Source: Candidatus Woesearchaeota archaeon (GTDB lineage Archaea; Nanobdellota; Nanobdellia; Woesearchaeales; UBA9642). From it: a stretch of 64,000 nt of DNA. The position numbers and the translations under genes are program-made. The notes beneath the pieces were generated by a model. That model did not search any database, was not told the DNA's origin, and worked only from the letters and a program-made list of their open reading frames with translations. Below, in pieces: positions 9,839 to 48,839 of this stretch; the first letter of the stretch is position 1; each line of letters starts with the position of its first letter. The stretch is from assembly GCA_041658255.1 (NCBI GenBank), contig JBBAAQ010000005.1, positions 1,544-65,543 on the forward strand. The letters are read 5' to 3'.

Positions 9839-9869
9839 TTAAGCACAAAATATTGAGATTTGTGCTTAA
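9839..9869. promoter_or_regulatory. perfect 11-bp dyad TTAAGCACAAA-N9-TTTGTGCTTAA upstream of the RHH genes
   Basis: Arms at 9839-9849 and 9859-9869. It lies 9 nt upstream of the TATA box at 9878-9885. Confidence 0.55.
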
Positions 9870-9877
9870 CCAAAACC

Positions 9878-9885
9878 TTTATAAA
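9878..9885 (+). promoter_or_regulatory. TATA box TTTATAAA for the 9963.. operon
   Basis: Same octamer as the other promoters. It lies ~78 nt before the ATG at 9963, so a leader is implied here. Confidence 0.4.
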
Positions 9886-9962
9886 TCTCTATTCCGATTA
9901 CGAGAAACATACAAATAGCTAACATAAAAAATACGTTTGTTTTCCTTTATTTTGAGATTAAA

Positions 9963-10118
9963 ATGGATAACATTGAAATTATCAATATCCGGCTTTCTTC
10001 TGAATTATTAAAAAAAGTAGATGAACTTATCCGAGAAGGATCCTATTCTTCACGCAGTGAAGTCATCCGTGAACTCTGCCGCAACTATGTATTGGAGGAA
10101 CGCTACAAAGATGAATAA
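9963..10118 (+). CDS. ribbon-helix-helix (CopG/NikR-type) DNA-binding protein, 51 aa
   Basis: MDNIEIINIRLSSELLKKVDELIREGSYSSRSEVIRELCRNYVLEERYKDE shows the classic RHH pattern (beta strand, LxxxD, SRSEhIR). It is below the size cutoff of the ORF track. Confidence 0.7.
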   Translation: MDNIEIINIRLSSELLKKVDELIREGSYSSRSEVIRELCRNYVLEERYKDE

Positions 10119-10464
10119 TACTCCTGCAGCAAAAAACTCTGTACGGCAAAAAAAAGATGCAGTAGTATCTGTTCGCATGCCGAAAGGATTAGTGCAAGAA
10201 TTAAGGGATCTCCAAAAGATAAATCACTTCATGGACATTTCTGATGAAATACGATTCGTGATCCGAAAATATTGCTTACCGAAAAATCTCACCCAAGAAC
10301 GATCACAGAAATCACTCGAAGAAAAACAAAAACTCATCACCGATCTTGACAAAATCTTGCGTGAACTCAAAACCGATGCATCATCCTACGAAGAAAGATT
10401 GCACGAACTTAAAAATATGGATACAAAGAGTGGAGATACTAATCATCGCGATAACGCGCAGTAA
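10111..10464 (+). CDS. second RHH-like protein with a coiled-coil tail
   Basis: VSVRMPKGLVQELRDLQKINHFMDISDEIRFVIRKY is RHH-like. Its start overlaps the upstream stop (ATGAATAA). The track start at 10021 overlaps the first RHH gene in another frame. Confidence 0.6.
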   Translation: MNNTPAAKNSVRQKKDAVVSVRMPKGLVQELRDLQKINHFMDISDEIRFVIRKYCLPKNLTQERSQKSLEEKQKLITDLDKILRELKTDASSYEERLHELKNMDTKSGDTNHRDNAQ

Positions 10465-10467
10465 CCT

Positions 10468-13400
10468 ATGAATACCATTAATACATCTGGACAAAGGATA
10501 GTCTCCTCGAGAGTTATTATACTCGTTGCGCTAGTTATTTTCATTGCGATTATGCCTATTGCATCTGCGCAGTATCTTACGATCACCACTCCTGATTCTC
10601 CAATAGATCTTAATGCAATTAATTATACGATTGCAACAAGTGAACTTAATATCTCAAATACACATTCGGAGTCTCTCGATGCGTCTGCCAATACGACGAC
10701 ATTACTAGACATCAATGATACATTGTTCATTGATTGTATGCTTACTATTAATGCAACCTTATTGTCAAATAATACCGACGCATTAAATATCTCGAACATC
10801 ACTACCCATTATTCCACTACATTCAATGTGACTGATGCGACACCATCGCTTCAGTATTCACAACAAATCTCGCCATCACTCGCTGACGGCTTACATCGCA
10901 TGATATTGAACTGTACGACGACGCTTTTCGAATTGAATACCACTACACTCATCATCACAAATTATATCATGGTGCCTTCCAATTTGAGTGATACTAATTC
11001 AAGTAGTAATAATAGTGGAAATTTCTCTATCATTGAAACAAATACGACAACAATCACTCAAACCAACACCACACAAGTCATCAATTCCGGAACACAAAAA
11101 AATGTTATTGTAGATACTGCAATGCCGATCATCACCATTATTACTCCACTAACGCAATCAATTAATTCCTCGTCGCTGCAAAATGTAACTCAAAATACAA
11201 ATTCCTCTTTGTATCTCTTGCCCTTTAATTTTACACTCACGGAAGGATCAGATAGTATTTGTCAACTTACGTTAAGCCCAATCCCTCCGGTAAATGGCTC
11301 TTTGCAGATTGTTAGTTTTTCAATACCACTCGATGCATCATCTCCCGAATTGAGTTCAGGACTCAAAACCACGACGATATCAACTTCATTCAATGTTACT
11401 GCAATAAATTACTCTTACATTCTTACGTGTACTGACCTGTTCAATCGAACACAATCAGCAAATAATACATTCAGTGTTACCCCTCTATTCTCCCCCACCT
11501 CCCCCGAGGTCCAACCATTCCTTTCTATCACTATGACAAAATCTGCGTATAATCTGGGAGAACTTGCGTATTATGATATTTTTGCCATAAATAATAGTAA
11601 TGTTTCAATAACGATTTGTCCGGTTGCTCAAGGATGGGTGCAATGCTATGCGACGCCAGAATTCAAAAATGATACCTTTCCCAAACATTATGCGATGCCG
11701 TATACGAATAAGACCGGGCAATACCTCGTCGAAACTGTGATGCGTTATAAAAATACTACGTTACATGCAAATACGACTTTTGAAGTAGTTAATAGTATCA
11801 GTGCAACTATTACTCCGCATAATACACATGCTGTTGCAGGAAATCTTGTGACGTTTAATGCAACCGCAAACGGGGGTATTGCGCCATACACGTATAAGTG
11901 GACGTTGTATGATGGGCAAACATTTAGTGGTTCTGGGGCATACAAAAACTTCACGAGCAGTGGAACATATCAAATCAATCTTACGGTTAATGATAGCGCA
12001 GGAAACAGTTATACTACCATAACATCAATAAAAATTCGTGAACTCTACCAACTCAAAATTATTACTTATGATAAAAAAACAGGGAGCAGAGCCCGTGATG
12101 TTCTCGTGCGCATTGATGATGCAGTGAATAAGACAACAAATCCTGATGGTGAAGTTGTTTTTAGTCTTGTTCAAGGAAAATATGATATCTATGCTTCAAA
12201 AGGTGATTATGGCGGGTTTCTGAGTAATGTTCTTGTTGATAAAAATATCACGGTTTCCATGAATCTTTCAATCGAAGACTATTTCCCGCCGAAGATTACG
12301 CTTCTCACGAGTACTGGCGCAACATTTACGAAAGACACAATCAAACTCAAATTTAAAGCCGAGGATATGAGTGAGATGTATTGCGCGCTCTATACTGCAA
12401 AACTCGAAGATCATTGGTTCACACTCAAAGATGCAGGACCGAATTTAAAGTCGAATATTGAGTATACGTTTGATATTACTAATCTTGATTATGGATCCTA
12501 TAAATGGAAAATCGAATGTCGTGATGAAAGTAATAATAGCGCATATAGTGATGATTATAATTTTACTATTTCAAGTATTGATCTGCAGGCCGTAGCACAA
12601 AAAACTGCAACATCTTCTGATGATTTGAATGCTGCACTTGATCGGATAGATGCATTATCCGTGCAGGAAGCCGAGGTTGCGCAGATTTTAGGTATTAAAA
12701 ACGAATTGAAAGATATCCTTGAAAAAGTCAATAATCTCGATCGGGATATTCATAATCTTGCATTCCGCAGAGACCTTAATGAAAATGGGAAACTGTTATT
12801 ACAAAAGAATTATACTGATACGATCGAATACCTGAAATACCACACACCCATAAATGTCGAAGTCAAAGAGACTAAAACCTTTGTGAAATATGTTCGTGAT
12901 CCTGAACTTAAAATAATCCTTGATGAATATCGTTCCCTTAAAAATCTTAATATTAAAGAAAATCTCTTTTTTGAATCAACAAAAACTACGCAATCAAAAG
13001 CAATCATCTCAACTAAGGCGCGTGTCGTTGTTCTCTCCTATTTGAATGGTGAAAAAAAAGAGATTACACTTATCACGAAAGATATTCGTGTTGCAAAAAT
13101 TGAAGACCAGCAACTCTTCGCAAAATCGACGAGCATTACCTTTGTTGAACATATCCCTAAAACCGTTATCCCGACAATCAAATCAGTAACTGTTCTCAAT
13201 AAAGAATATACTGTTTTAAAAGAAGACCCGCTCCTCGAGTTTCCCGGATCAACAACAACAATATCGTACAGTATCGCCAGTGCAATAAATCTTGATACTA
13301 TCCAACAAATCGATACTGTGATCATTGATAAAAATGTTCAATCCACAAATCGCTTTACCGGCCTTGCAATTACTGATTTTAAGTTAATTCAAGAATCACT

Positions 13401-13911
13401 AAATGGAAAAGTACTCCTCGCTATTGTCATTTTTATTCTCATCCTCGTCTATGTTATCATTAGTTTTGATATTGCGAGTCGTATTAAGAATTTCTTTGGT
13501 ATGTTCTTTTATAAAAAGAAGACAAGTTATATCCGTGTGTTGATTAATGATTCTTCAGATTATTTACATGAAGGGGATAGTGCAAAAGCAGCGCTCATCT
13601 ATCACGAGATTAAACTAACGTATGAGAGTTCTCCTCCCCCAATTCAACGTAAAGTCTATGAAGAATGCTACGAACTCTGCAATAAGATTGATATTTCATA
13701 CTTTTATGAACTTTCAGCAACTATCCAAGCGCTTGCAAAAACAAATCATATTCAAGAATCTATTGATCAGTATGAAACATTAGAAAAAACATATGTAAAA
13801 ATTGATGATCGGTATAAGAAGGATCTTACTGAGAGACTTCGTTCCATATCGGCTCAAGTGAGTGCTCTGCAACAATTTACCACGGGTCCATGCAAAATAG
13901 ATGACGTGTAA
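10468..13911 (+). CDS. large bitopic surface protein, N-glycosylation-sequon rich, with a PKD domain and a cytoplasmic tail
   Basis: 1147 aa with an N-terminal signal/TM segment and dozens of NxS/T sequons. A PKD-like segment (VAGNLVTFNATANGGIAPYTYKWTLYDGQ...YQINLTVNDSAGN) lies at ~nt 11790-12040. A TM segment (VLLAIVIFILILVYVIISF) is followed by ~140 cytoplasmic residues. Confidence 0.85.
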   Translation: MNTINTSGQRIVSSRVIILVALVIFIAIMPIASAQYLTITTPDSPIDLNAINYTIATSELNISNTHSESLDASANTTTLLDINDTLFIDCMLTINATLLSNNTDALNISNITTHYSTTFNVTDATPSLQYSQQISPSLADGLHRMILNCTTTLFELNTTTLIITNYIMVPSNLSDTNSSSNNSGNFSIIETNTTTITQTNTTQVINSGTQKNVIVDTAMPIITIITPLTQSINSSSLQNVTQNTNSSLYLLPFNFTLTEGSDSICQLTLSPIPPVNGSLQIVSFSIPLDASSPELSSGLKTTTISTSFNVTAINYSYILTCTDLFNRTQSANNTFSVTPLFSPTSPEVQPFLSITMTKSAYNLGELAYYDIFAINNSNVSITICPVAQGWVQCYATPEFKNDTFPKHYAMPYTNKTGQYLVETVMRYKNTTLHANTTFEVVNSISATITPHNTHAVAGNLVTFNATANGGIAPYTYKWTLYDGQTFSGSGAYKNFTSSGTYQINLTVNDSAGNSYTTITSIKIRELYQLKIITYDKKTGSRARDVLVRIDDAVNKTTNPDGEVVFSLVQGKYDIYASKGDYGGFLSNVLVDKNITVSMNLSIEDYFPPKITLLTSTGATFTKDTIKLKFKAEDMSEMYCALYTAKLEDHWFTLKDAGPNLKSNIEYTFDITNLDYGSYKWKIECRDESNNSAYSDDYNFTISSIDLQAVAQKTATSSDDLNAALDRIDALSVQEAEVAQILGIKNELKDILEKVNNLDRDIHNLAFRRDLNENGKLLLQKNYTDTIEYLKYHTPINVEVKETKTFVKYVRDPELKIILDEYRSLKNLNIKENLFFESTKTTQSKAIISTKARVVVLSYLNGEKKEITLITKDIRVAKIEDQQLFAKSTSITFVEHIPKTVIPTIKSVTVLNKEYTVLKEDPLLEFPGSTTTISYSIASAINLDTIQQIDTVIIDKNVQSTNRFTGLAITDFKLIQESLNGKVLLAIVIFILILVYVIISFDIASRIKNFFGMFFYKKKTSYIRVLINDSSDYLHEGDSAKAALIYHEIKLTYESSPPPIQRKVYEECYELCNKIDISYFYELSATIQALAKTNHIQESIDQYETLEKTYVKIDDRYKKDLTERLRSISAQVSALQQFTTGPCKIDDV

Positions 13912-13938
13912 ACTAAATAATATAAAGGACGTACGGAT

Positions 13939-16900
13939 ATGAATAGAAAAATAGATGATATTATCGCAGGAAAAAAAGATCGAAAGAATATACTTATCAT
14001 AGTTCTTATGCTCTTTTTTCTCTCAGGGTCAATACTTGGGCTTATGCTAGTCACCAATTTTGTAGGGTTTGTGTATCAGAATTATCTTTCAGGGCAGGCA
14101 GGATATGTATATGAAACTATTTTGGATTACCGTGAATGTGCATATATGTGGTCGGGAGTTTATGGGTTCGCCGAGATGATAAAAGGTGAAAACGGTTGGA
14201 GTGAACAAATATCGTCTTGTAGTTTATCTGCTATTAATATTTCTTTTAATTGTTTAGCTCCGGGCATTGATCATGAGATCATGGCTTCACAGGTTCCTTC
14301 AAGTACAATTTCATGGGATACATTAAGACCTGCAACAACACTCGAAGTAGATCAGTATATGGGTGTAGATCCAACGAATAGCATGTCCGCAACAAAAACA
14401 TTCACACAACAACATGTCTATCAGATAGGGCAAAACACGTACACAGTCTTTGGAACTTCGACAAAAAAAACAGGTAATGCTACAGACATTAATTTTGATA
14501 TGGGCGTCTTAAGAGACGGGAATGGAAATCTTATTTTTATTTCTCACATTTTAAAAAATAGCACTTACGGGTTCGATAATCAGATCTATAATTACCAGAT
14601 GATCCTTCCTTTGCGTAATGGAACAAATCCCGTGTATTACTTCTTTTCTGATCCTTTTGATCAATGTTCTGAAGAAGGTAGTGGTGATGATTCAATCTAT
14701 GTTCCTCCAGTAACTGAAACTTTGACGCCAGAAACAATCGCTAGTGGTTCTACTGGTTCATTTGATTTTGCAAAATCCGAAACCCTGGGTGTAACTACGA
14801 TTGATGTTACAGTCAAAGACGGCACTACAGGAACATTTACAGTTGCTGATTCTGACAAACCAACAGGATCCCCACTTGCGATAGCATCAACAACAGGCGC
14901 AGTATACAATTACATTCAAATCACTTCAACGATTCCTAATAGTAATATTGCTACTGCAACAATAAAATTCAAGGTTCCCAAAACATGGTTTACTACAGAA
15001 AATATTGATTATACTACTATTGCCTTGAAAAAATTAGTGAATAATGTGTGGGTTGAATATGCGACAACATCTGCGAGTGAAGGTTCATCATACTATTATT
15101 ATGAAACAGTTGTATCCTCGTTTTCATCGTATGTGATTGTAGGAAAGTATACTAATGCAACAACACTGCCCGCAACACCCATTCTGGAGCAGCCAAAACG
15201 TATTGAAGGTATTGATTATGGTATCTCACTCTCAAAAATTGACCGCAAGATTGTCGTTGGAAACTTCTTACAGGAAATTGTTGCATTCTATAATTATAGG
15301 TCCGCTCCTGCAAATCTTAATTTTTCAATTGAGGGAGAAAATCTCAGTAAACTTATCAAACTCGATAAGAGTAGCATGATTATCTCTCCAAATACCAATG
15401 ATCAACTTACATTGACAATCTTTGGTGAAGGAACACCCGGTATCTATAATGGGTCGCTTGTTGTTGATGGTACATTACAGCAAAAAATTCCTATCCATAT
15501 TGAACTCCTCTCAAAAGATCGATTACCCGTCGAATCGATCCTTATCTTTACAGATATCTATAATCGGAAAATCTTTTCTTTTGATAAGTTAAAATTTAAG
15601 ACAGATCTTCGTAATATGCTCTCTGATCAATCATACCCTGTAACACTCCAATTTACCATTCAAGATATTACGGGTTCTACAGTCTGGTCTGATCAATCAA
15701 ATGTATTTGTGCAAACATCATTTTCATTATTAAAAACCGCAGAACTTCCAAAGAATCTTTCGAATGGTAATTATGTCTTGGGTATACGCGCGAATTATCT
15801 TGGAGTTTCAAGCAGTACAAGCGCAGTGTTTAGTGTCGTTTCACCATTCTATGATCAATATTTGTTCGGAATGAGTGTATGGATTTGGATTATCCTTTTA
15901 GTATTTTTCCTCCCAGTAATTCTTGTATCGTTTTTTATGCGAAAACATATCAAGAGTAAGAAACATTATGCGGCAAAAGTATCTTACACTGAATTACCGA
16001 AAGTCGGTCTAAAATCTATGTTTGTGGGAAAAATTGCAGAGACAGATCATAAGACATATTTTGACCTTGAACAATTCAAAATGCACACTATTGTTGCAGG
16101 AGCAACAGGTGGTGGTAAGTCGGTTGCTGCGCAAGTTATCGTCGAAGAAGCATTGATGAAGGGCATTGCAGTTATTGTTTTTGATCCCATCGCAGAATGG
16201 TCGGGAATGCTGCGCAAAGGAATTGATAAGAACATGTTGAAATTATATCCGCAATTCGGGCTTAAAGCAACAGATGCAAGATCGTTTAATGGTAATGTAC
16301 GGCAGATTACGAATGCACTCGAAGTGATTGATATTAAAAAATATATTAACCCCGGAGAAGTCCAAATTTTTACACTCAATAAACTTGATCCGGAAGATAT
16401 CGACATTTTTGTTGCCAATTCGATTCGTGAAATATTTCACGCTAATTTTCCTGAGAATCCTGAGATAAAACTTCTCATTGTTTACGATGAAGTACATCGT
16501 TTACTGCCAAAATTCAGTGGTTCTGGAGAAGGATTTTTACAAATTGAGCGCGGATGTCGTGAGTTTCGTAAGTGGGGTATCGGTATGTTATTGATTTCGC
16601 AGGTCCTTGCAGATTTTGTCGGACAAATCAAAGCAAACATCAATACGGAAATTCAGATGCGTACGCGTGATGAAGGAGACATTGATCGCATTAAGGCAAA
16701 ATATGGTACTGATGTCCTTCAAGGTCTTGTCGAGGCAAGTGTGGGTTTTGGGATGGTTGAAAATCCGGCATATAATAATGGTCGACCCTATTTTGTATCG
16801 TTTCGTCCGCTACTGCACAATACGCAACGTCTCTCAGATGAAGAACTCGAGAAATATGATAACTGTAATGAAATCATTGACGATCTCCACTATCAACTCG

Positions 16901-17622: not shown

Positions 17623-17702
17623 AAATTTATTGTCTGAGAATCGTAATCGCAACACGCTCCAGAACAAACGCAGAATGCAGCTGATTGAGAAAAAAATTAA
17701 AA

Positions 17703-19460: not shown

Positions 19461-19503
19461 TGATTAAGATAAATGATGATTAAATAAATGATGATTAAGA
19501 TAA
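19457..19503 (+). repeat. three tandem copies of ATGATGATTAA(G)ATAA spanning the stop of one gene and the start of the next
   Basis: Copies at 19457-19472, 19473-19487 and 19488-19503. Only the third opens the 2513-aa frame; the first two are 8- and 4-codon mini-ORFs. Confidence 0.9.
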
Positions 19504-25500: not shown

Positions 25501-27029
25501 CTAATTTTGCTCCTGTGATGAATTTTTCTCGTATTTCTCCGTCGACTGCGTATACGAATGATACGCTTTTGGGTTATTGTAATGCAACAGATGCAGATAA
25601 TAATAATTTAACATATAATTGGAAGTGGTTCTTGAATGCCGTACAGAATACTACTGGAACGACGACAAATAATTATACTCAAAGTTTAGAGATTAATGTT
25701 GCGAATATTGCTTCTGGAAATCTTTCCATCGGACAGAATTGGACATTCTCGTGTCAGGCAAATGATTCTATAAATATGAGTAGTTGGATGAATAGTTCAG
25801 TTGTTACAATCATCGATACAACGCCACCCAGTGTTCAATTAGATGCGCCGGCACCAAATGATGCTCGCGATCAAGGGCAAATAACATTCACGTACACTCC
25901 TTCTGACCCTCAGTTACAAAATTGCACACTCTATACTAATCGTACGGGTGTATGGATGGCAAATGCAACCAATTCATCACCTATTAATATGTCACAAAAT
26001 AATTTCTTATTGAATTTGAGTTATGGCACCTATCTGTGGAACGTACAATGTTGCGACTCTTTTGCGAATTGTGGATTTGCGCCTGCAAACAGGACTTTGC
26101 AGATCGTAGGAGACTTTGCAATTAGTGATCAGGGTCTCTTATTGAGTTCGCCTAATCCCGTCGAGAATCAAAATATTACGCTATCATCAATTGTCCTTAA
26201 TCTTGGAAATAAATCAGAATCTAATATTCTCGTACGATTCTATGAAGGAGATCCTGATACGACGGGCATTCAGATAGGGAGCGACCAATATTTTAATTTT
26301 TCTGCACTCCAGAATATCACGGTGAATATGACATGGACAACAAAAGTCGGGGGTTATAATCTCTTCGTGAAAGCTGATCCCGCAAATGCAATTGTCGAAT
26401 TCAATGAATCGAATAATAAGGCAAATAAGAGTGTGTATACTGCTGCATGGCAGATCTATTATGGAAATATTACAGGACTTTTTGTATTAGGGACGAACAC
26501 GAATAATACTATTATCGATTGGTTGCCTACAAATCTGTCTGCAAATATTTATATCGCAGATTCTGATTCATCAATCTCTTGGCAATCCCTTAAAGCAATC
26601 ACGAGAAATATAACAGGGAATAGTACGAGTAATACGACGAATGATTTTGAAGAGATAGATACTTGCCTTGCTATTGAGAACCTCACAGATTCAGTTAATG
26701 CAACATATTCGAGTGGCGGTTCACCTATCCAAACAAATAATTATACTATCTATCAGAATAACTTGTCAAATGTTCCGGTCGTGAAGAGCACGAATACGAC
26801 AAATTTTTATTCAGGGATACTCTGGGATAGCGCTGATTCAGGAGATACGTATTATACGTGTAACCCTAATCCACTCTTACGAAAGGACATTATATTTGTG
26901 ACTACGCTTAATGCGCATCAAGCAGGCGCATACGGTACTTATGATTATGAAATACGAATTCCTGCAAAGCTTCGATCATATCGTGGATCGGACGAAACAG
27001 TCAGTTTATATTATGAGACAACAGGCTAA
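19488..27029 (+). CDS. giant secreted adhesin-like protein (2513 aa): 5 novel ~170-aa repeats, Ig/cadherin-like modules, 3 near-identical 100-aa cassettes, a LamG domain and a CARDB-like domain
   Basis: Signal peptide FLFLVLGLFCIYSSPDAAAS. Five repeats each end in PGEG(L/V)A(L/M)Y..(A)G...W(E/K)E. The LamG/ConA-like segment lies at ~nt 24680-25350 (GSGITFDGVNDLV...GYFNGSIDEVMIWNRNLSASEISQLY). The CARDB-like segment lies at ~26110-26440 (NITLSSIVLNLGN...YNLFVKADPANAIVEFNESNN). The protein is extremely rich in sequons. Confidence 0.9.
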   Translation: MMIKINGLWNVKQFVRLGFLFLVLGLFCIYSSPDAAASINASDSQYLIAIGPVTGSTSANYVYLSIFNPATSNNSVVINYLFLRNTAVNTATYQKLTLRRINASSTGTLIAQSDIPKKNTNSANATVEIRYAGPAVTYPNGVNARIISVVGSGAAGSLNGFKELVFNETNPLVLRPGEGVALYQEAAGSANQRVNLLVDWEETNTTPQLKNEYIIATPKVAIAATVNYTYHSFFNPAASGKTYLVKRIDINVDCNGAAVYTNTMALRRITAASVGTLITQSDIPKKDTATNVSTAELRNTNPTVTHVGTANARLRQVTPCGAANQHGAYKETLFESSEEPLIIKQGEGLALISETAGDVSQLVGTQMEWEEISNTTTPLTENELMYASPPVTTTATINYTYHSIFNPVGSGKVAIIKRIEIRMDAGTANKVYQPVNLQRINAASAGTLITQSDIMKKNSATNTTVMELRYNGPTVTLNGSTDAAILTITGPGAVGQLRSRKELIFNNEKIVLRPGEGLAMYSETAGGASQYAKLYVDWEEEPLAAVPAAQNEYALNVGSFNGVTTSGYNYTSFFNPALSNVTAIVTKIFMDIDTAGTAVYIPFTIRRITSASGGTSIAQSDIPKKNTGSNVSIMEWRYANPTVAYVGSSNARIESVQSPGALGTAVAPQLTGWQDDIFTKEPYVIKPGEGLTLYQEAAGDVDFRVKFMLVWKEISYALTPATEGNYMTSIGPVSGSLTNNYVYATIYNPLNSSRDYIMRRIDVRSDRVGALTAPGYIPVSLQRINSSSGGTLMSLSDILPKNTATNTSTAELRSAGPTVNFVGTTASDMIGVMAPGAVGQEYGKIEIISGKGDEIILHPGEGLAMYQQGTAGDANMRYRMDLVWNESIIVTNTAPTFTQSIGDQSISHSVNLSLQVNCTDLDFDTILYFDNTSLFDINSSGYIFDNPTQAEAGVYNISITCGDGVANTSSSFLYTITNSAPTTPTTPSITSGTYRSDSFVSSSGTGSSDSDGDSLSYSYQFTSSSSGTILQSFGVSTSYTTCSSNSACNKTGDIKVQVRVSDGSANTDSALSSAKDILNTAPTQPSADTLTPTTPIIGNQFTMGCSGSTDVDPEDSLTYFYGLYDLNDSVYRQAFSTLATYTLVAPVDSHDTFRTDCYANDSSNVSSTRTGTTLRTVSNSAPVMSSSRISPSTAYTNDTLLGYCNATDADNNNLTYHWKWYLNTVQNTSGTTSNNYSQGLEINVANVSSGNLSDGQNWTLSCQANDSSLTSSWLNSSVLMISPYYGSLNVTITSPATDISVNQNSTFQINATVTCTGETGAICGTVYANARYNASSATPDTLINTTSGGTPLYMTGNGGMCYQESANESTACGGLNTGTYANESTAGWNNLNYTIDGNWSTTGDTGGLAGDSATLYINYTKPSNSLDTSVWRVSNGNSTGGVFIVNISLPILCWNYSSTIIRLKVTSQHGASTLFNDVKWDCYNGTDYLNLSRTTGSDLVYEEAIWWNISGTSNPQTSSSTLSQGQSWSMNWTVNTTGTTGSSYYVDVLFNSSYGSGSVPNNDTANRKMTVNSAPVLNSSRVSPTIAYTNDTLLGYCNATDSNLDNLTYNWKWYLNAVQNTTGTTSSNYTQGLEINVANVSSGNLSVGQNWTLSCQANDSSLTSSWMNSSVVAIRAVPAVLFVYPTPNSGTSATNTSIIVNASINISVLTNLSTVTWNWNGTNYTMYNNSLVLLYNFNNVSVFGENVSSNKTFDSSTYGNNGTCQGMGAGCNYTLGKYGSGITFDGVNDLVNVSNPTSLNNLGPATWSMWVNRNSLTNYGALMYKSDSNVNAGWWIDFRSDNGGELGINIVHSTTNIRRYTNASILGVGQWFNLVITWTNVSSYTAVNMYINGVETAYSWNTTPAGNHLSDAAEPLTIGYGKAITGGYFNGSIDEVMIWNRNLSASEISQLYKSNLYKYNTSNWQFTSNQSNLTLGGYTYFACADDTSGVSNCTETRTLTITNVSNFAPVMNFSRISPSTAYTNDTLLGYCNATDADNNNLTYNWKWFLNAVQNTTGTTTNNYTQSLEINVANIASGNLSIGQNWTFSCQANDSINMSSWMNSSVVTIIDTTPPSVQLDAPAPNDARDQGQITFTYTPSDPQLQNCTLYTNRTGVWMANATNSSPINMSQNNFLLNLSYGTYLWNVQCCDSFANCGFAPANRTLQIVGDFAISDQGLLLSSPNPVENQNITLSSIVLNLGNKSESNILVRFYEGDPDTTGIQIGSDQYFNFSALQNITVNMTWTTKVGGYNLFVKADPANAIVEFNESNNKANKSVYTAAWQIYYGNITGLFVLGTNTNNTIIDWLPTNLSANIYIADSDSSISWQSLKAITRNITGNSTSNTTNDFEEIDTCLAIENLTDSVNATYSSGGSPIQTNNYTIYQNNLSNVPVVKSTNTTNFYSGILWDSADSGDTYYTCNPNPLLRKDIIFVTTLNAHQAGAYGTYDYEIRIPAKLRSYRGSDETVSLYYETTG
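23022..23321 (+). repeat. cassette copy 1 of a ~300-nt intragenic repeat
   Basis: Encodes NSAPVMSSSRISPSTAYTNDTLLGYCNATDADNNNLTYHWKWYLN...NWTLSCQANDSSLTSSWLNSSV. Most nucleotides are identical to the copies at 24201 and 25503. Confidence 0.9.
24201..24500 (+). repeat. cassette copy 2
   Basis: NSAPVLNSSRVSPTIAYTNDTLLGYCNATDSNLDNLTYNWKWYLN...NWTLSCQANDSSLTSSWMNSSV. Confidence 0.9.
25503..25802 (+). repeat. cassette copy 3
   Basis: NFAPVMNFSRISPSTAYTNDTLLGYCNATDADNNNLTYNWKWFLN...NWTFSCQANDSINMSSWMNSSV. Confidence 0.9.
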
Positions 27030-27039
27030 TATGAAATCC

Positions 27040-27420
27040 TATGCAAGCATCTTTACCGCAGCTCGTCGATAAAAACATCGAGCTCGTCGCGAGGGGTTGC
27101 TCCATACGGGAACGCAGAGCTAAGAGGATAATACATCTGTTAGCGAGGACGGATGCTTGCAAAAATTAAGAGGGTTTCGTATTAGCCGAGACAACATAAA
27201 ACTTTTTAAACAACAGAATTCCACTTATCTATGATGGGTGGTCGAAGTGGAATCTGCTGTGCTCAGGAATCACCGGTCGTGGAATTCTGAGCGCAACAAA
27301 ATCAATGATTTTGTGCGCAAGAAAAGCTGTGCTTTTCTTTGCGTCAAGAACCACATAATATTTCATTAACTAAGCAGTCATGCCACCAGTCTGTGACCGG
27401 TGGTTCTTGACATGAGAATG
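27040..27420. other. GC-enriched, multi-hairpin intergenic region; candidate structured ncRNA or regulatory array of unknown family
   Basis: There are five long perfect or near-perfect helices, several mutually exclusive (coordinates in the findings). No ORF of 60 aa or more occurs on either strand. The promoter-like TATATATAGTATATT for the next gene lies downstream of the region. Confidence 0.3.
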
Positions 27421-27488
27421 GGGTGTACTATATATAGTATATTGGACTAGGGGTGGAGAAGAGGTGAAACTATTACTTCTCAAAAAAT

Positions 27489-28427
27489 ATGACTGATCAT
27501 GCGCTACAATCAAAGAAGGATGATGATGTTGCATATGATAAAGATATAAAATCAGGTGCGATCCCTAATCCTCCACGAACACTTCCAGAACTCGCAAAAA
27601 ATCTTTATGATACAAAAAATCTTTATGATACCTCGAATAATTCGTATAATTCTTCAGGAACAGCACCCCTAAATTCTTCTGCGCAAACCATGCAAAAACC
27701 TTTAAGCGCGCCAATGTCGGCCCCGTTACAACCAGTCGATATGTCTTTTATTCGCCAATCGAATACTGCACCGTCGGTCTCGCCCGCAGTATCATCTATG
27801 GCAACACAAGAACAACTGATCGTGCCGCAAGGAGCTATACGATCTTCATCGATGAATGCAGGAAATGCAATGATTTATTCTCAGCAATATCCTTCTCAAA
27901 ATCATCCTCAAAATCCTCTTCAACCCATTATTATTCAGATGCCGTCACCATCTGCGCCACAAATATATATAGTGCCGTATCCCGTGTCCAGTAGTTCAAC
28001 AGGAAATCCGATAGGGGCTAATGAGAGTACACTTCAATTAATCCAGCTTATTGCGCAGATATTAAAATTATCTCTTCCGGGTGATATTTCTATGATCACT
28101 TCCGCTCCTAATTTTTTTTCAAATCCTGTGGCGTCGACAAATCCCGCACCTCTCGTAGATAAAGCCGCAGTGCAAACAATATTTCTTGATGATCTCTCAA
28201 AATTCTTTTATTTGCGCGACGGTGTTGTGTTACGTTCACTTCCTCAACTTGCGTATCATCTTCGTGCAATGTCTGATGAGGAATTTTCATATCACGTTAC
28301 AAACGAAAAAAATGATTTTGCGAATTGGGTAAGAGACGTTTTTGCACTTCCCGAATTTGCAGAAGAAATTTCTCGTATACAAAGTAAGAATAAACTTGCA
28401 GATTTCTTGATGAGAACAATTTTTTAG
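27489..28427 (+). CDS. low-complexity (S/P/Q-rich) protein with a C-terminal NDFANW domain
   Basis: 312 aa. The C-terminus FFYLRDGVVLRSLPQLAYHLRAMSDEEFSYHVTNEKNDFANWVRDVF is homologous to the C-terminus of the 13939..17622 ATPase. Confidence 0.7.
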   Translation: MTDHALQSKKDDDVAYDKDIKSGAIPNPPRTLPELAKNLYDTKNLYDTSNNSYNSSGTAPLNSSAQTMQKPLSAPMSAPLQPVDMSFIRQSNTAPSVSPAVSSMATQEQLIVPQGAIRSSSMNAGNAMIYSQQYPSQNHPQNPLQPIIIQMPSPSAPQIYIVPYPVSSSSTGNPIGANESTLQLIQLIAQILKLSLPGDISMITSAPNFFSNPVASTNPAPLVDKAAVQTIFLDDLSKFFYLRDGVVLRSLPQLAYHLRAMSDEEFSYHVTNEKNDFANWVRDVFALPEFAEEISRIQSKNKLADFLMRTIF

Positions 28428-28888
28428 TAAACACATATTTTTTTCAGTCGCTGTGAATCATTACTTATTTATTTGAATGACGAGTGATTTGAATTAATTC
28501 ATTATTACTTTTAACGCTGTTTTCTTTGTTGTATATAAAGTATAGAATACTTTTATACAGAGAAAATCCTGAGGATTTTCGAGTGTTCAAAAACTGAACG
28601 CTACAAACTTCAGTTTGCAGTTTTTGACACAACTTAAAAATTTTTGATTTGCGATAGCAAATTTTTCTTGTTTTCGAACTATTTTTAAGCCAATTTATGC
28701 TATTTTTCGCGAATTTGCCATTTTTAAGCCTTTAAAACAGTATATTCCCTAAAAGATACTAAAACGAAATATTTATATATAAGTATACATATTAGTATAT
28801 TAATGTAGGTTTGTTTGACAAAACGACCTTTTATTAAAAACAAAAAATGAAGACGACTATTTTTGGAATAAGTAACAAAGGTGAAAAA

Positions 28889-29602
28889 ATGGAGAAAAAA
28901 CTGATATTAATTGGCTTGTTGACATTGCTAAGCATTTCTTTTGTCTTCGCATTACCCTCAGGACCAAATAGTGCAATAACACCAGTAAGTAGCAGCAGAT
29001 ATACAGCAGCTACAGGAAAAACAACATCCGCAATTGCCGGTAATGTGACAGAGATTAATTTCAATGCGACAACAATAACACAAACATGGCAGGGGTATTT
29101 TGGAAGTGTGACCGGTACAATCGTACTTGGTAATAGCAATAATAAAACCCTTTATGATTGGAATCTTGCAAGTCCGCAAGGAGAGATCTATGCAACACGA
29201 TATGCTTCAACTCCTAGTTGGGCAGGAATTCGATGTGCAAATGCCACAGAAATAGGAGCAGAACACACATTTTCTGGCGCTACTGCTACTGCTGTTGATC
29301 GTTTGGCTAATACATTTATTGCTTCAACTGCATTCACTACATTCTATGTCGGAGCAACATCAATCGCTTCAGGTGCATCATGTTATGCAGCGAACATGTA
29401 TAATAATACTGGTGCGCAGACAGCAAAATTCTCAGAAGTCATCTTATCAGATACCACAAATATTATCTATACTGCACTCCTTGAACAGAATGCAATGGGT
29501 TTTGATGGTAGCACATACGATTTCGAGATGATTGTTGCAGAAAATGGTCACCTTACTGACACGAGTACAACAACCTACTACTTTTACTTAGAACTTGAAT
29601 AA
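28889..29602 (+). CDS. secreted hypothetical protein
   Basis: MEKKLILIGLLTLLSISFVFALPSG signal peptide. The mature part is Thr/Ala/Asn-rich. The track start at 28847 adds 14 residues. Confidence 0.7.
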   Translation: MEKKLILIGLLTLLSISFVFALPSGPNSAITPVSSSRYTAATGKTTSAIAGNVTEINFNATTITQTWQGYFGSVTGTIVLGNSNNKTLYDWNLASPQGEIYATRYASTPSWAGIRCANATEIGAEHTFSGATATAVDRLANTFIASTAFTTFYVGATSIASGASCYAANMYNNTGAQTAKFSEVILSDTTNIIYTALLEQNAMGFDGSTYDFEMIVAENGHLTDTSTTTYYFYLELE

Positions 29603-46364: not shown

Positions 46365-46409
46365 TAGTATGATCGTTGTTCAGTAAAGAGGATAAAGAGG
46401 TGAGTTGTT

Positions 46410-48721: not shown

Positions 48722-48839
48722 TGGGTCGGATGGAATTTGAATCCATGACATCTACGGTTCGAAGAATGCGCGGCATTCTTTGCTGTTTGCCGCGACAAAC
48801 ACTTCAGCGTAGCGCTCTCCCAGGCTGAGCTACCGACCC
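48722..48839 (-). tRNA. tRNA-Phe (GAA) with a 44-nt intron at the canonical 37/38 position
   Basis: GGGUCGG/CCGACCC acceptor stem, GCUC-AGCCUGGGA-GAGC D arm, CUACG/CGUAG anticodon stem, anticodon GAA (complement of 48803-48805), AUGGA-UUCAAAU-UCCAU T arm and discriminator A. The intron spans 48758-48801, with anticodon GAAG pairing to intron CUUC. CCA is not encoded. Confidence 0.9.

What the first reader, a model, noticed from the sequence alone, without database searches (positions are those of the whole stretch)
9839..29602. Long co-directional operon for an uncharacterised cell-surface apparatus
From 9963 to 27029 every gene is on the plus strand. Junctions are -8, 3, 27, 80 and 27 nt, consistent with one transcription unit behind a dyad operator and TATA box.

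The content is unusual. Two small RHH proteins come first. Three proteins with large sequon-rich ectodomains and cytoplasmic tails follow (10468, 13939, 17703). One of these carries a cytoplasmic HerA/FtsK/VirB4-class ATPase. Last is a 2513-aa secreted adhesin with LamG, CARDB-like and Ig-like modules. Two further plus-strand genes (27489, 28889) follow, and one of them shares a domain with the ATPase.

Adhesins combined with a membrane-spanning translocase-type ATPase are what one would expect of a contact-dependent transfer or attachment machine in an episymbiotic archaeon. I know of no described system with this gene set.
Basis: partly seen in the sequence, partly recalled or inferred. Interest (0 to 1): 0.85.

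Follow-up and report, generated by a model that had tools for sequence, protein, structure and literature searches.

The report
Split SPEARE-like surface ATPase operon
This is a real, widely conserved operon of Woesearchaeota (tiny symbiotic archaea) in which a membrane-anchored HerA-type motor ATPase, a large membrane scaffold protein and a separately encoded giant adhesin form the split-gene counterpart of the giant "SPEARE" surface proteins already known from nanohaloarchaea, so it is a new variant of a known but functionally unsolved host-contact machine.

Summary
Coordinates, strand, junctions (-8, 3, 27, 80, 27 nt), the dyad, the two RHH proteins, the membrane topologies, the HerA-class ATPase and the LamG/CARDB giant are all as described.

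The claim that no such system has been described is wrong. The cytoplasmic ATPase domain is 51% identical over 369 aa to the C-terminus of a 4,079-aa Ca. Nanosalina giant protein. It belongs to the conserved cytoplasmic domain family of SPEARE-type giant proteins of DPANN archaea (Hamm 2019; reanalysed 2023).

Four things look new:
- In at least 80 Woesearchaeota/Nanoarchaeota species genomes the ATPase sits in a conserved cassette: RHH1, RHH2, 1,000-aa scaffold, ATPase, then module and coiled-coil proteins, then a giant secreted protein.
- One extracellular domain recurs at the ATPase N-terminus, at the giant's C-terminus and in the small downstream protein G8. This suggests non-covalent docking that rebuilds the fused SPEARE architecture.
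- By profile and fold the ATPase falls in the HerA clade, not VirB4/TraG or a restriction enzyme.
- An ACAAA..TTTGT operator-like dyad recurs upstream of RHH1.

The 591-aa gene is strain-specific. The otherwise near-universal coiled-coil partner is missing from this window. Cargo and direction of transport remain inferred.

The parts
9839..9869 (.). Perfect 11-nt inverted repeat (TTAAGCACAAA-N9-TTTGTGCTTAA). Candidate operator for the RHH pair.
   Evidence: unique in the window, 0 expected from shuffles. ACAAA..TTTGT dyads lie upstream of RHH1 in 12 of 49 relatives against about 1 expected.
9878..9886 (+). TATA-like box TTTATAAAT, 9 nt downstream of the dyad and 77 nt upstream of the RHH1 start codon.
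   Evidence: Read directly from the sequence. Function is inferred.
9963..10118 (+). RHH1, a 51-aa CopG/NikR-type ribbon-helix-helix protein.
   Evidence: Pfam RHH_1 at E 1e-9. Found in 55 of the 82 loci searched, always at the head of the cassette.
10111..10464 (+). RHH2, 117 aa: a divergent RHH domain followed by a C-terminal coiled coil. Overlaps RHH1 by 8 nt.
   Evidence: The F12 (RHH1-family) HMM hits it at E 9.5e-9. hhalign probability 95.5%. Found in 53 loci.
10468..13911 (+). G3, a 1,147-aa bitopic membrane protein. It has a sequon-rich ectodomain with a PKD domain, a TM at aa 982-1000 and a 147-aa helical cytoplasmic tail. Proposed scaffold partner of the ATPase.
   Evidence: Homologues lie immediately upstream of the ATPase in 69 loci, with a median gap of 1.5 nt.
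13939..17622 (+). G4, a 1,227-aa membrane-anchored HerA-clade ATPase. Order: TM, ectodomain, TM, ATPase, helical bundle/coiled coil, DUF5752-like module.
14080..14652 (+). G4 aa 48-238: the N-terminal extracellular 'WQGY' head domain, shared with G8 and with the G6 C-terminus.
   Evidence: hhalign of the G8 family against the ATPase family: probability 99.4%, E 5.7e-21. The F9 HMM hits 70 ATPase homologues.
14722..15144 (+). G4 aa 262-402: PGF-pre-PGF domain. Most relatives have a CarboxypepD_reg domain at this position instead.
   Evidence: NCBIfam TIGR04213 at E 1.6e-19. Alignment A1.
15178..15882 (+). G4 aa 414-648: conserved membrane-proximal beta-rich ectodomain. It belongs to the family core and is also present in Micrarchaeota and Altiarchaeota members.
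   Evidence: Invariant columns in A1. F0 HMM positions 376-660 match in L083 and L084.
15940..17040 (+). G4 aa 668-1034: cytoplasmic ATPase domain with Walker A GATGGGKS, Walker B VYDEVH and the invariant QIERGCREFRKWG, followed by a helical bundle.
   Evidence: 51% identity to the Ca. Nanosalina 4,079-aa giant.
17320..17574 (+). G4 aa 1128-1212: C-terminal DUF5752-like 'NDFANW' module, shared with G7 and with the F3 proteins of relatives.
   Evidence: F3 HMM at E 7.5e-28. hhalign probability 99.2%. pLDDT 80-89 in the model.
17703..19460 (+). G5, a 585-aa type II membrane protein. Its cytoplasmic N-terminus carries about ten (I/V)SDRV repeats. It is strain-specific and occupies the position that the module and coiled-coil genes hold in relatives.
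   Evidence: No homologue in 80 related loci or among the collected proteins. Tandem repeat at 17789-17934.
19488..27029 (+). G6, a 2,513-aa Sec-signal giant adhesin with LamG (nt 24840-25334) and CARDB (nt 26145-26426) domains and no C-terminal TM.
   Evidence: Its modules are found inside the ectodomains of giant ATPase fusions P0104, P0083, P0108 and P0120. Its C-terminal 430 aa is 35% identical to the giant in L051.
26424..27026 (+). G6 C-terminal ~200 aa: a third copy of the WQGY head domain and the candidate docking domain.
   Evidence: BLASTP against G8 at E 3e-9. hhalign against profile A5: probability 96.1%. BLAST hits to F9-family proteins over about 200 aa.
27489..28427 (+). G7, a 312-aa soluble protein. 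It has a low-complexity N-terminus and the DUF5752-like module at aa 237-311.
28847..29602 (+). G8 (likely start codon at 28889), a ~240-aa secreted stand-alone WQGY-domain protein. Relatives carry tandem arrays of paralogues downstream of the giant.
   Evidence: Model pLDDT 72.9 with no PDB fold match.

Best explanation
The locus encodes the split-gene, Woesearchaeal form of the SPEARE-type surface machine of DPANN archaea.

What is shown:
- G4 is a bitopic membrane protein. Its cytoplasmic part is an intact HerA-clade P-loop ATPase of the SPEARE cytoplasmic-domain family.
- In many relatives the same TM+ATPase unit is fused to a 2,000-5,600-aa adhesin-like ectodomain.
- In this window and in at least 80 related species the ectodomain is short, and a giant secreted adhesin is encoded separately downstream in the same cassette.
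- The cassette is headed by two RHH proteins and by a conserved 1,000-aa bitopic protein (G3).
- One extracellular domain (WQGY) occurs at the N-terminus of G4, at the C-terminus of the giant G6 and in the small secreted G8.
- One cytoplasmic module (DUF5752-like) occurs at the C-terminus of G4 and in G7.

What is inferred:
- The RHH pair binds the dyad next to the TATA box and autoregulates the operon.
- G6 and G8 are exported by Sec and dock through WQGY-WQGY contacts onto the G4 ectodomain. This would rebuild non-covalently the adhesin-TM-ATPase architecture of fused SPEARE proteins, with G3 as co-scaffold.
- The adhesin binds the host cell surface.
- The ATPase, by analogy with HerA, CedB/CedD, FtsK and VirB4/VirD4, forms a hexameric ring under the membrane and uses ATP to thread a polymer across the symbiont membrane at the contact site. 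The polymer is most likely DNA, possibly protein. The 12 or more TM helices of the ring, plus those of G3, would form the conduit.
- G7-type module proteins act as cytoplasmic adaptors or regulators of the motor.

Cargo, direction and stoichiometry are unknown.
For: Family identity:
- phmmer with the ATPase domain finds 365 clusters at E<1e-30. Protein lengths run from 250 to 6,253 aa and the ATPase is always C-terminal, just after a TM.
- P0160 is a 4,079-aa Ca. Nanosalina protein and is 51% identical over 369 aa. It also carries the Pfam ResIII hit that explains the published 'restriction enzyme' label.
- The named taxa (Woese-, Pace-, Nano-, Micr-, Aenigm- and Altiarchaeota) match those listed for SPEARE-like cytoplasmic domains in PMC6642349.
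- The architecture of signal peptide, Ig-rich ectodomain, TM, ATPase and coiled coil is described in PMC10266531.

HerA clade:
- The family profile against PDB gives HerA 4d2i at 1.3e-15. FtsK scores 2e-4, DotL 3e-4, VirB4 4e-3, TrwB 0.1 and EccC 0.7.
- The top Foldseek hits are HerA 4d2i and Sir2-HerA.
- Walker A, Walker B and the arginine-rich motif are invariant across the family.

Conserved cassette.

Rosetta-stone link between the giant and the ATPase: G6 modules occur inside fused giants.

Shared domains:
-.
- The WQGY domain is present only in the mid-size, split-type ATPases and in none of the fusion proteins of 2,000 aa or more.
- G8-type arrays lie directly downstream of the giant in a relative, with the same flanking pyruvate kinase gene as in the window.

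Operator.

Precedent: membrane-anchored HerA-clade ATPases that import DNA are known in the form of CedB/CedD (PMC11868833).
Against: - No experiment bears on function for any member of the family. Even for SPEARE proteins the role (invasion tool, secretion 'straw', DNA uptake) is disputed between PMC6642349 and PMC10266531.
- The cassette encodes no polytopic channel protein of the VirB6/CedA type, so a translocation conduit has to be assumed from bitopic helices.
- G6 has its own Sec signal, so the ATPase is not needed to export it.
- The window lacks the F2 coiled-coil partner, which is otherwise present in 63 of 80 relatives and also in a Micrarchaeota locus. The strain-specific G5 stands in its place, so this particular locus may be rearranged or partly degenerate.
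- WQGY-mediated docking is inferred from domain sharing alone. The G8 model has only moderate confidence (pLDDT 72.9) and no structural analogue.
- The ATPase model has a mean pLDDT of only 66.5.
- I did not compare directly with the named SPEARE accessions (NAR1_1133, AOV94740.1).
Confidence: 0.6

Rival explanations
1. Surface filament or sheath machine. The small WQGY proteins (G8 and the arrays of paralogues in relatives) would polymerise into an extracellular fibre or lattice. The fibre would be nucleated on the homologous head domain of G4 and capped by the WQGY-tailed giant. The ATPase would power or regulate assembly or retraction rather than move cargo.
For: - The G8 family has 337 members of about 240 aa, each with a signal peptide and a conserved C-terminal YYF.ELE strand.
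- These proteins occur in tandem arrays of 3-6 paralogues next to HTH regulators.
- The same domain sits at the membrane-distal end of G4 and at the C-terminus of G6.
Against: - The subunits are Sec substrates, and a cytoplasmic HerA ring has no obvious access to them.
- Arrays lie within 10 kb of the ATPase in only 13-14 of 80 loci.
- The fused giant forms lack the domain entirely, yet they keep the ATPase.
- The G8 model shows no similarity to any pilin or donor-strand fold.
Confidence: 0.15
2. Housekeeping FtsK-like DNA translocase for chromosome segregation or cell division, regulated by a CdrS/CdrL-like pair of RHH proteins.
For: - The cassette is chromosomal and shows synteny with adenylate kinase and other housekeeping genes in many relatives.
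- RHH1 weakly matches the CdrS and aCcr1 cell-cycle regulator models (E 8e-5 and 2.5e-3).
- The ATPase belongs to the FtsK-HerA superfamily and is membrane-anchored.
Against: - The RHH matches fall far below the family cut-offs (22.6 bits against 100).
- The ectodomain is hypervariable, ranging from 150 to 5,600 aa, and is built of adhesin, protease, LamG and Ig modules. That pattern indicates an outward-facing, fast-evolving interaction.
- The FtsK score is eleven orders of magnitude weaker than the HerA score.
- No ftsZ, sepF or cdv genes are nearby.
Confidence: 0.07
3. Remnant or cargo of an integrated conjugative or T4SS-like mobile element, with RHH relaxosome-accessory proteins and a coupling-protein-like ATPase.
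For: - Weak partial matches to TraD, TraC, VirB4 and TrwB models.
- RHH proteins commonly accompany coupling proteins.
- PMC10266531 calls the domain VirB4/TraG-like.
Against: - The window has no integrase, relaxase, VirB6/CedA-like channel, VirB4 N-terminal domain or flanking tRNA.
- GC content matches the flanks, apart from the giant gene itself.
- Gene order and chromosomal context are conserved vertically across 80 species.
- The profile places the domain with HerA, not with VirB4 or VirD4.
Confidence: 0.05
4. HerA-based DNA repair (HerA-NurA) or an anti-phage HerA defence system (Sir2-HerA or DUF4297-HerA type).
For: The best sequence and fold matches in PDB and PADLOC are HerA proteins from those systems.
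Against: - The matches are partial, at 15-20% identity.
- No NurA, Mre11/Rad50, Sir2 or DUF4297 partner is present.
- The protein lacks a HAS-barrel N-domain. Instead it has two TM helices and a 600-aa glycosylatable ectodomain.
Confidence: 0.02

Closest known systems
SPEARE / giant membrane-anchored extracellular proteins of Nanohaloarchaeota (Hamm et al. 2019, PMC6642349; reanalysed in PMC10266531)
   Same: - The cytoplasmic ATPase domain is homologous, at 51% identity over 369 aa to a 4,079-aa Ca. Nanosalina member.
- The topology is the same: ectodomain, a single TM just before the ATPase, then a helical/coiled-coil tail.
- LamG, Ig-like and NPCBM-type adhesion modules are associated with the system.
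- The organisms are DPANN episymbionts.
   Different: - Here the machine is split. The ATPase protein carries only a 600-aa ectodomain, and the 2,513-aa adhesin is a separate Sec-exported protein.
- A WQGY domain, absent from the fused giants, is shared by the ATPase, the giant and G8.
- The cassette has extra conserved partners that the SPEARE papers I read do not report: two RHH proteins, the G3 scaffold, DUF5752-module proteins and a coiled-coil protein.
- There is no serine-protease domain in this locus.
- There is no second VirB4-like ATPase downstream.
CedB/CedD of the crenarchaeal Ced DNA-import system (PMC11868833, PMC9905601)
   Same: Both are membrane-anchored HerA-clade ATPases of archaea and both act at cell-cell contacts. 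NCBIfam CedD is among the best partial matches (E 4.9e-8). This system is the best functional analogy for ATP-driven DNA uptake.
   Different: - The match covers only the P-loop region, at 32 bits against a cut-off of 600.
- The locus has no CedA/VirB6-like channel, no CedA1/A2 and no VirB4-like N-terminal domain.
- The ectodomain is large, whereas Ced ATPases have none.
HerA of HerA-NurA end resection and anti-phage Sir2-HerA / DUF4297-HerA
   Same: These are the closest solved structures by profile (4d2i at 1.3e-15, 9x1l at 3.2e-15, 8wiv at 1.6e-13) and by fold. The Walker A, Walker B and arginine motifs are of the same type, so a hexameric ring is presumed.
   Different: - The window protein has no HAS barrel and no nuclease or Sir2 partner.
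- It is integral to the membrane and has an ectodomain.
- Identity is only 15-20%.
Type VII secretion EssC/EccC with EsaA
   Same: The layout is conceptually similar. An FtsK/HerA-superfamily ATPase is anchored by TM helices and works with a large bitopic/polytopic protein that has a long extracellular domain and with very large surface substrates.
   Different: The sequence and fold signal is negligible (EccC E 0.7; Foldseek probability 0.3 or less). There is a single ATPase domain rather than three, no WXG100-type substrates, and the giant has a Sec signal.
FtsK/SpoIIIE
   Same: A membrane-anchored DNA pump of the same superfamily. Pfam FtsK_SpoIIIE gives a weak P-loop match (E 4.7e-5, just below the cut-off).
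   Different: The window protein has no gamma domain, no four-TM N-domain and no division-site context. It scores far more weakly against FtsK than against HerA.

Membership tests
SPEARE-type giant surface protein family (DPANN) | Conserved cytoplasmic P-loop domain, described as the most conserved region of SPEARE proteins. | tested here: met
   G4 aa 668-1034 is 51% identical (E 2e-123) to the C-terminal domain of the 4,079-aa Ca. Nanosalina protein P0160. P0160 gives the same ResIII/DUF87 Pfam pattern that led to the published annotation. The named SPEARE accessions themselves could not be fetched, so the link rests on architecture and taxon.
SPEARE-type giant surface protein family (DPANN) | A TM helix immediately N-terminal to the cytoplasmic domain, with the bulk of the protein extracytoplasmic. 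| tested here: met
   The TM is at aa 649-667 and the ectodomain spans aa 46-648. The same layout holds in 51 representatives of 1,900 aa or more.
SPEARE-type giant surface protein family (DPANN) | Giant size (3,000 to over 9,000 aa), with the adhesin ectodomain in the same polypeptide. | tested here: not met
   G4 is 1,227 aa. The 2,513-aa adhesin G6 is a separate gene 1.9 kb downstream. I therefore file this as a split variant and not as a SPEARE protein sensu stricto.
SPEARE-type giant surface protein family (DPANN) | At least one laminin-G domain and further adhesion domains in the extracytoplasmic part. | tested here: met
   This is met at the level of the system. G6 has Laminin_G_3 (E 2e-19) and CARDB, G3 has PKD and G4 has PGF-pre-PGF. 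G6 modules align to the ectodomains of fused giants.
SPEARE-type giant surface protein family (DPANN) | Serine protease domain. | tested here: not met
   No peptidase domain is found in any protein of the locus, although P0078, a fused relative, has Peptidase_S8. PMC10266531 itself disputes that this is a defining feature.
HerA clade of the FtsK-HerA superfamily | P-loop ATPase core with Walker A and Walker B motifs and best profile and fold similarity to HerA. | tested here: met
   Pfam DUF87 at 1.4e-11 and HerA_C at 1.7e-7. Profile against PDB: HerA at 1.3e-15. Foldseek: 4d2i. Invariant GxTGxGKS and YDExH motifs.
HerA-NurA repair helicase | Soluble HerA with an N-terminal HAS barrel, encoded next to NurA (and usually Mre11/Rad50). 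| tested here: not met
   Only about 50 aa separate the TM from Walker A. The window has no NurA, Mre11 or Rad50. The NCBIfam HerA equivalog models score 24-34 bits against cut-offs of 800-970.
Type IV secretion / conjugation (VirB4, VirD4/TraG) | A VirB4 or T4CP ATPase together with a VirB6-like channel and other T4SS components. | tested here: not met
   VirB4 scores 4e-3 and TrwB 0.1, against 1e-15 for HerA. There is no VirB4 N-domain (PF03135), VirB6/CedA or relaxase in the window or in the cassettes of relatives.
Ced DNA-import system | CedB/CedD ATPases with the CedA channel and CedA1/A2. | tested here: not met
   The CedD model scores 32 bits against a cut-off of 600, over the P-loop region only. 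No polytopic partner is present.
Ribbon-helix-helix autoregulator pair | RHH fold and a palindromic operator at the protein's own promoter. | tested here: inconclusive
   The fold is supported for RHH1 and RHH2. The dyad is present and enriched family-wide. Binding has not been tested.

The most novel reading that the evidence does not exclude
Woesearchaeota build a modular host-contact translocon. A membrane HerA-type hexameric motor (G4) carries an extracellular WQGY 'socket'. Separately encoded and rapidly diversifying giant adhesins (G6) and small WQGY paralogues (G8 arrays) plug into that socket non-covalently. Adhesin specificity could then be swapped without touching the motor. The motor would pump host-derived or symbiont-derived DNA or protein across the symbiont membrane under control of a dedicated RHH pair. 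This would be a cell-to-cell transfer machine evolutionarily independent of T4SS, Ced and T7SS, and the fused SPEARE proteins would be its single-chain form.
Probability: 0.3. Interest if true: 0.8.

Novelty: new variant of a known kind. Interest (0 to 1): 0.58.

Why it matters
DPANN archaea depend on hosts for lipids, nucleotides and amino acids, yet no machine that moves material between symbiont and host has been identified. SPEARE-type proteins are the leading candidates, but single polypeptides of 4,000-9,000 aa are very hard to study.

The split Woesearchaeal form separates the motor (1,227 aa), the scaffold, the adhesin and the candidate docking domains into individually expressible proteins, and it adds conserved partners. 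That makes several questions directly testable:
- Is the HerA-like domain a DNA- or protein-stimulated hexameric ATPase?
- Do the WQGY domains dock the adhesin onto the motor?
- What do the RHH proteins sense?

The analysis also corrects the literature annotation. The domain is HerA-clade, not a restriction enzyme and not specifically VirB4/TraG. The family reaches well beyond Nanohaloarchaeota: it comprises 365 clusters (50% identity) at E<1e-30, and named members include Woese-, Pace-, Micr-, Aenigm-, Alti- and Hadarchaeota.

Tried and rejected
- Pfam, NCBIfam and PADLOC gave nothing for G5, G7 (beyond a sub-threshold DUF5752 hit), G8, the F2 coiled-coil family, F7 or the G3 tail.
- The F2 profile against PDB returned only generic coiled coils.
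- The G8 model against PDB returned no match below E 2, so the WQGY fold stays unassigned.
- The ATPase-part model is of moderate quality (pLDDT 66.5). TM-scores to HerA are low because of floppy regions, so I relied on the profile search for clade placement.
- I searched for the F2 and F7 partners in all six frames of the window and found none.
- A cell-division reading based on CdrS/aCcr1-like RHH hits was rejected as generic RHH similarity.
- The defence-system, HerA-NurA and conjugative-element readings were rejected on architecture and neighbourhood.
- G3 and G4 share only one Ig-like domain, so G3 is not a degenerate paralogue of the ATPase protein.
- Literature searches for DUF5752, for Woesearchaeota with FtsK or RHH, and for DPANN with HerA or DUF87 found no description of this cassette.
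- The Rfam search of the structured 27030-27488 spacer was negative.
- The sigma-70 promoter/terminator scanner was not used, because it does not apply to archaea.

Full report
OBSERVATION

The window is archaeal. It contains an intron-bearing tRNA found by Rfam but not by ARAGORN, with EF-2, NDK, S28e and L7Ae upstream of the locus and pyruvate kinase downstream. The same contig is present in a public metagenome assembly (ENA ERZ27247322, 75.5 kb).

Every coordinate in the finding checks out.
- Plus-strand genes lie at 9963-10118 (RHH1), 10111-10464 (RHH2), 10468-13911 (G3), 13939-17622 (G4), 17703-19460 (G5) and 19488-27029 (G6).
- The junctions are -8, 3, 27, 80 and 27 nt.
- G7 (27489-28427) and G8 (28847/28889-29602) follow after gaps of more than 400 nt.
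- The dyad TTAAGCACAAA-N9-TTTGTGCTTAA at 9839-9869 is perfect and unique in the window. It abuts a TATA-like TTTATAAAT.

- RHH1 matches RHH_1.
- G3 contains a PKD domain.
- G4 contains DUF87/HerA. NCBIfam adds an extracellular PGF-pre-PGF domain.
- G6 contains Laminin_G_3 and CARDB.
- RHH2 has no Pfam hit, but it is an RHH paralogue.

Hydropathy gives the predicted topologies. Sequons are about two-fold enriched in G3, G5 and G6 but not in G4.

IS THE GENE ORDER CONSERVED?

Yes, and strongly. The full G4 sequence finds 35 full-length relatives of 1,170-1,580 aa, plus a few partial or local matches, almost all labelled Woesearchaeota or Nanoarchaeota.

A pattern scan of one genome per GTDB species found 117 species that encode a relative, and 80 loci were fetched. 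I searched the window proteins against these loci with tblastn.
- RHH1 is present in 55 of the 82 loci searched, which include two copies of this same contig.
- RHH2 is present in 53 loci.
- G3 is present in 69 loci.
- All three always lie in the same order and on the same strand, immediately upstream of the ATPase. Absences are mostly contig ends.

I then clustered all ORFs of these loci. This revealed further conserved members that the window does not show.
- Directly downstream of the ATPase lie one or two small soluble proteins (family F3, 62 loci).
- Next comes a ~350-aa coiled-coil protein (F2, 63 loci).
- Some loci also have a ~200-aa protein (F7).
- A large secreted protein of 800 aa or more follows on the same strand in 35 of 48 loci with more than 6 kb of downstream sequence. 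Many of these are cut by the locus end.

Junctions are operon-like across the family. The medians are -4 nt for RHH2-G3, 1.5 nt for G3-ATPase, 3.5 nt for ATPase-F3 and 0 nt for F7-giant.

The window itself departs from this consensus in three ways.
- It has no F2 or F7 in any frame.
- The slot between the ATPase and the giant is filled by G5, which has no homologue anywhere in the data.
- The single F3-like protein (G7) sits after the giant.

WHAT IS THE ATPASE?

A phmmer search with aa 668-1034 against 1.84 billion representative proteins finds 365 clusters at E<1e-30. The ATPase is always near the C-terminus and is preceded by a TM helix, while total length ranges from about 250 to 6,253 aa. 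Of the best 149 representatives, 51 are 1,900 aa or longer.

Cluster look-ups name several of these giants.
- Woesearchaeota proteins of 3,933 and 4,862 aa.
- Hadarchaeales members.
- A 4,079-aa 'helicase HerA-like domain-containing protein [Candidatus Nanosalina sp.]'.

That nanohaloarchaeal giant is 51% identical to G4 over 369 aa. It also carries Ig-like, CarboxypepD_reg and NPCBM_assoc modules, plus a Pfam ResIII hit on the P-loop domain.

This is the published SPEARE architecture. Hamm et al. 2019 (PMC6642349) described proteins that are mostly extracytoplasmic. [quoted passage not shown] The authors noted similar sequences in Woesearchaeota, Aenigmarchaeota, Micrarchaeota and Altiarchaeales. 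My profile search named the same taxa.

A 2023 reanalysis (PMC10266531) found no endonuclease. It called the domain VirB4/TraG-like with a C-terminal coiled coil, and it proposed a secretion 'straw'.

My data refine that placement.
- The family profile scores HerA structures at 1e-15 to 1e-11, against FtsK 2e-4, DotL 3e-4, VirB4 4e-3, TrwB 0.1 and EccC 0.7.
- Foldseek on the AlphaFold model of the cytoplasmic part (pLDDT 66.5) also puts HerA first.
- Walker A, Walker B and an arginine-rich QIERGCREFRKWG motif are invariant, so the enzyme is probably active.

It is not a HerA-NurA helicase. It has no HAS barrel and no NurA, and it is membrane-embedded. It is not a defence HerA either, because no effector partner is present.

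DOMAIN SHARING TIES THE LOCUS TOGETHER

Three lines of evidence link the separate genes.

1. The cytoplasmic module.
- The ~70-aa C-terminal module of G4 carries the motif ...H-V-x-x-x-K-N-D-F-A-x-W-I... and gives sub-threshold DUF5752 hits.
- It recurs in G7 and in the F3 proteins of relatives.

2. The extracellular WQGY domain.
- G8 belongs to a family of ~240-aa secreted Woesearchaeota proteins (337 hits, no Pfam).
- G8 is homologous to the N-terminal extracellular domain of G4, aa 48-238 (hhalign probability 99.4%, E 5.7e-21).
- The last ~200 aa of the giant G6 are a third, more divergent copy of that domain. Support comes from BLASTP against G8 (3e-9), hhalign against the G8-family profile (probability 96.1%), and BLAST hits to family members over about 200 aa.
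- I call it the WQGY domain after its conserved W-Q-G-Y-x-G-N motif.
- It is found at the N-terminus of the mid-size (1.1-2.0 thousand aa) ATPase proteins and in none of the fusion proteins of 2,000 aa or more.

3. A Rosetta-stone link.
- G6's LamG-containing region aligns to the ectodomains of several giant ATPase fusions, with E values down to 3e-22.

In a relative on the same contig as ATPase homologue P0014, an array of G8-type genes lies directly downstream of the giant. A pyruvate kinase gene on the opposite strand follows that array, as in the window.

The simplest reading is that the fused SPEARE architecture has been split, or was originally assembled, into a motor subunit and an adhesin subunit that dock through WQGY domains. 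The fold of that domain is unassigned. The G8 model has pLDDT 72.9 and no PDB match.

REGULATION

The RHH pair heads the cassette in essentially every relative with enough upstream sequence. The window's dyad contains ACAAA..TTTGT. Such dyads occur within 200 nt upstream of RHH1 in 12 of 49 relatives. Shuffles give about 1 (maximum 5), and random windows of the same loci give 0.9. This supports, but does not prove, a conserved autoregulatory operator. An imperfect copy (GCGCAACAAAATCA / TGATTTTGTGCGC, near 27295-27322) lies in the spacer before G7. That is a single occurrence and not statistically meaningful.

MECHANISM: SHOWN AND INFERRED

These points are shown:
- family membership;
- topology;
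- intact ATPase motifs;
- the conserved cassette;
- the shared domains;
- fusion of the ATPase to giant adhesins in relatives.

These points are inferred:
- RHH autoregulation;
- Sec export of G6 and G8 and their docking on the G4 head domain, with G3 as co-scaffold;
- host binding by the adhesin;
- a hexameric HerA-like ring that threads DNA or protein across the symbiont membrane.

The best functional precedent is CedB/CedD, the membrane-anchored HerA-clade ATPases required for DNA import in Sulfolobales (PMC11868833).

Several facts weigh against a confident mechanistic claim.
- The cassette has no polytopic channel protein.
- The giant is Sec-dependent.
- No experimental data exist for any member of the family.
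- The missing F2 partner and the orphan G5 make this locus atypical.

Other family members occur in quite different contexts.
- One lies next to housekeeping genes with no cassette (L086).
- One is a fused giant followed by a second stand-alone, much shorter (417 aa) paralogous ATPase (L087), as reported for nanohaloarchaea.
- One is a Micrarchaeota fusion with a Kelch-repeat ectodomain. It still has the F2 coiled-coil gene downstream (hmmsearch E 1.3e-56).

F2 is therefore a partner found in more than one DPANN phylum. G3, the RHH pair and the WQGY domain look specific to the Woesearchaeal split form.

VERDICT

The feature is real, conserved and biologically coherent. It is not categorically new. 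It is a split, operon-organised variant of the SPEARE-type giant-adhesin/ATPase system, which is known from the literature although its function is unresolved.

I found no description of these elements in the searchable literature:
- the conserved cassette;
- the WQGY docking-domain pattern;
- the shared cytoplasmic module;
- the recurrent operator-like dyad;
- the HerA-clade placement.

I rate interest as moderate to high. The finding does not overturn anything. It does turn a hard-to-study giant protein into a set of separable parts that can each be tested for function in DPANN-host interaction.

Noticed in passing
window 19457-19506: The translation start region of the giant gene G6 is triplicated (ATGATGATTAAGATAA x3.2). 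This creates two tiny upstream ORFs (MMIKINDD*, MMIK*) between the G5 stop codon and the real G6 start at 19488. It could be a translational control or slippage site.
   Followed up: partly
window 17789-17934: A 15-nt tandem repeat of 9.7 copies (96% matches) encodes about ten (I/V)SDRV repeats in the cytoplasmic N-terminus of the orphan gene G5. The gene has no homologue in 80 related loci.
   Followed up: partly
window 27030-27488: The 459-nt spacer between G6 and G7 folds far better than shuffles (MFE -148 kcal/mol, z = -5.5) but matches no Rfam family. It also holds an imperfect palindrome with the same GCACAAA/TTTGTGC core as the operon's upstream dyad. It could be an ncRNA, a terminator cluster or a second operator.
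   Followed up: partly
window 44049-48677: A 771-aa T2SSE-type (FlaI/PilB-like) ATPase is followed by a 755-aa protein with no Pfam hit. This is probably a type IV filament (pilus-like) assembly locus 17 kb from the cassette. Such loci are also discussed as DPANN host-attachment devices.
   Followed up: no
window 48722-48839 (-): A tRNA gene of 118 nt, so presumably intron-containing, was found by Rfam (52 bits) but missed by ARAGORN. This supports the archaeal origin of the window.
   Followed up: no
window 29741-31585 (-): A 614-aa protein on the opposite strand has an N-terminal signal/anchor, a C-terminal TM, and a cytoplasmic tail with a CxxC...CxxC zinc-ribbon-like motif and a His-rich run. 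It has no Pfam hit and no homologue in the related loci.
   Followed up: no
L083 1-11098 (Micrarchaeota, GCA_026396285.1): The public gene call for the ATPase (366 aa) is only the tail of an open frame of at least 2,019 aa. That frame overlaps a Kelch-repeat gene of 1,889+ aa. The giant fusion seems to have been split by gene calling or by a frameshift, so short 'stand-alone' family members in databases may often be artefacts.
   Followed up: partly
L025, L028, L050, L052, L055, L070, L085 (G8-family arrays): In relatives, 3-6 paralogues of the secreted WQGY protein form arrays. They are interleaved with a ~310-aa sequon-rich secreted protein (F11) and small HTH regulators (F17, F18). This may be a separate surface-structure module that borrows the ATPase's head domain.
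   Followed up: partly
relatives' ATPase C-termini (alignment A1): Most Woesearchaeal homologues carry a C-terminal TPR array after the DUF5752-like module. Some carry two or three copies of the module. The window protein ends right after one module and has a PGF-pre-PGF domain where the others have CarboxypepD_reg.
   Followed up: no
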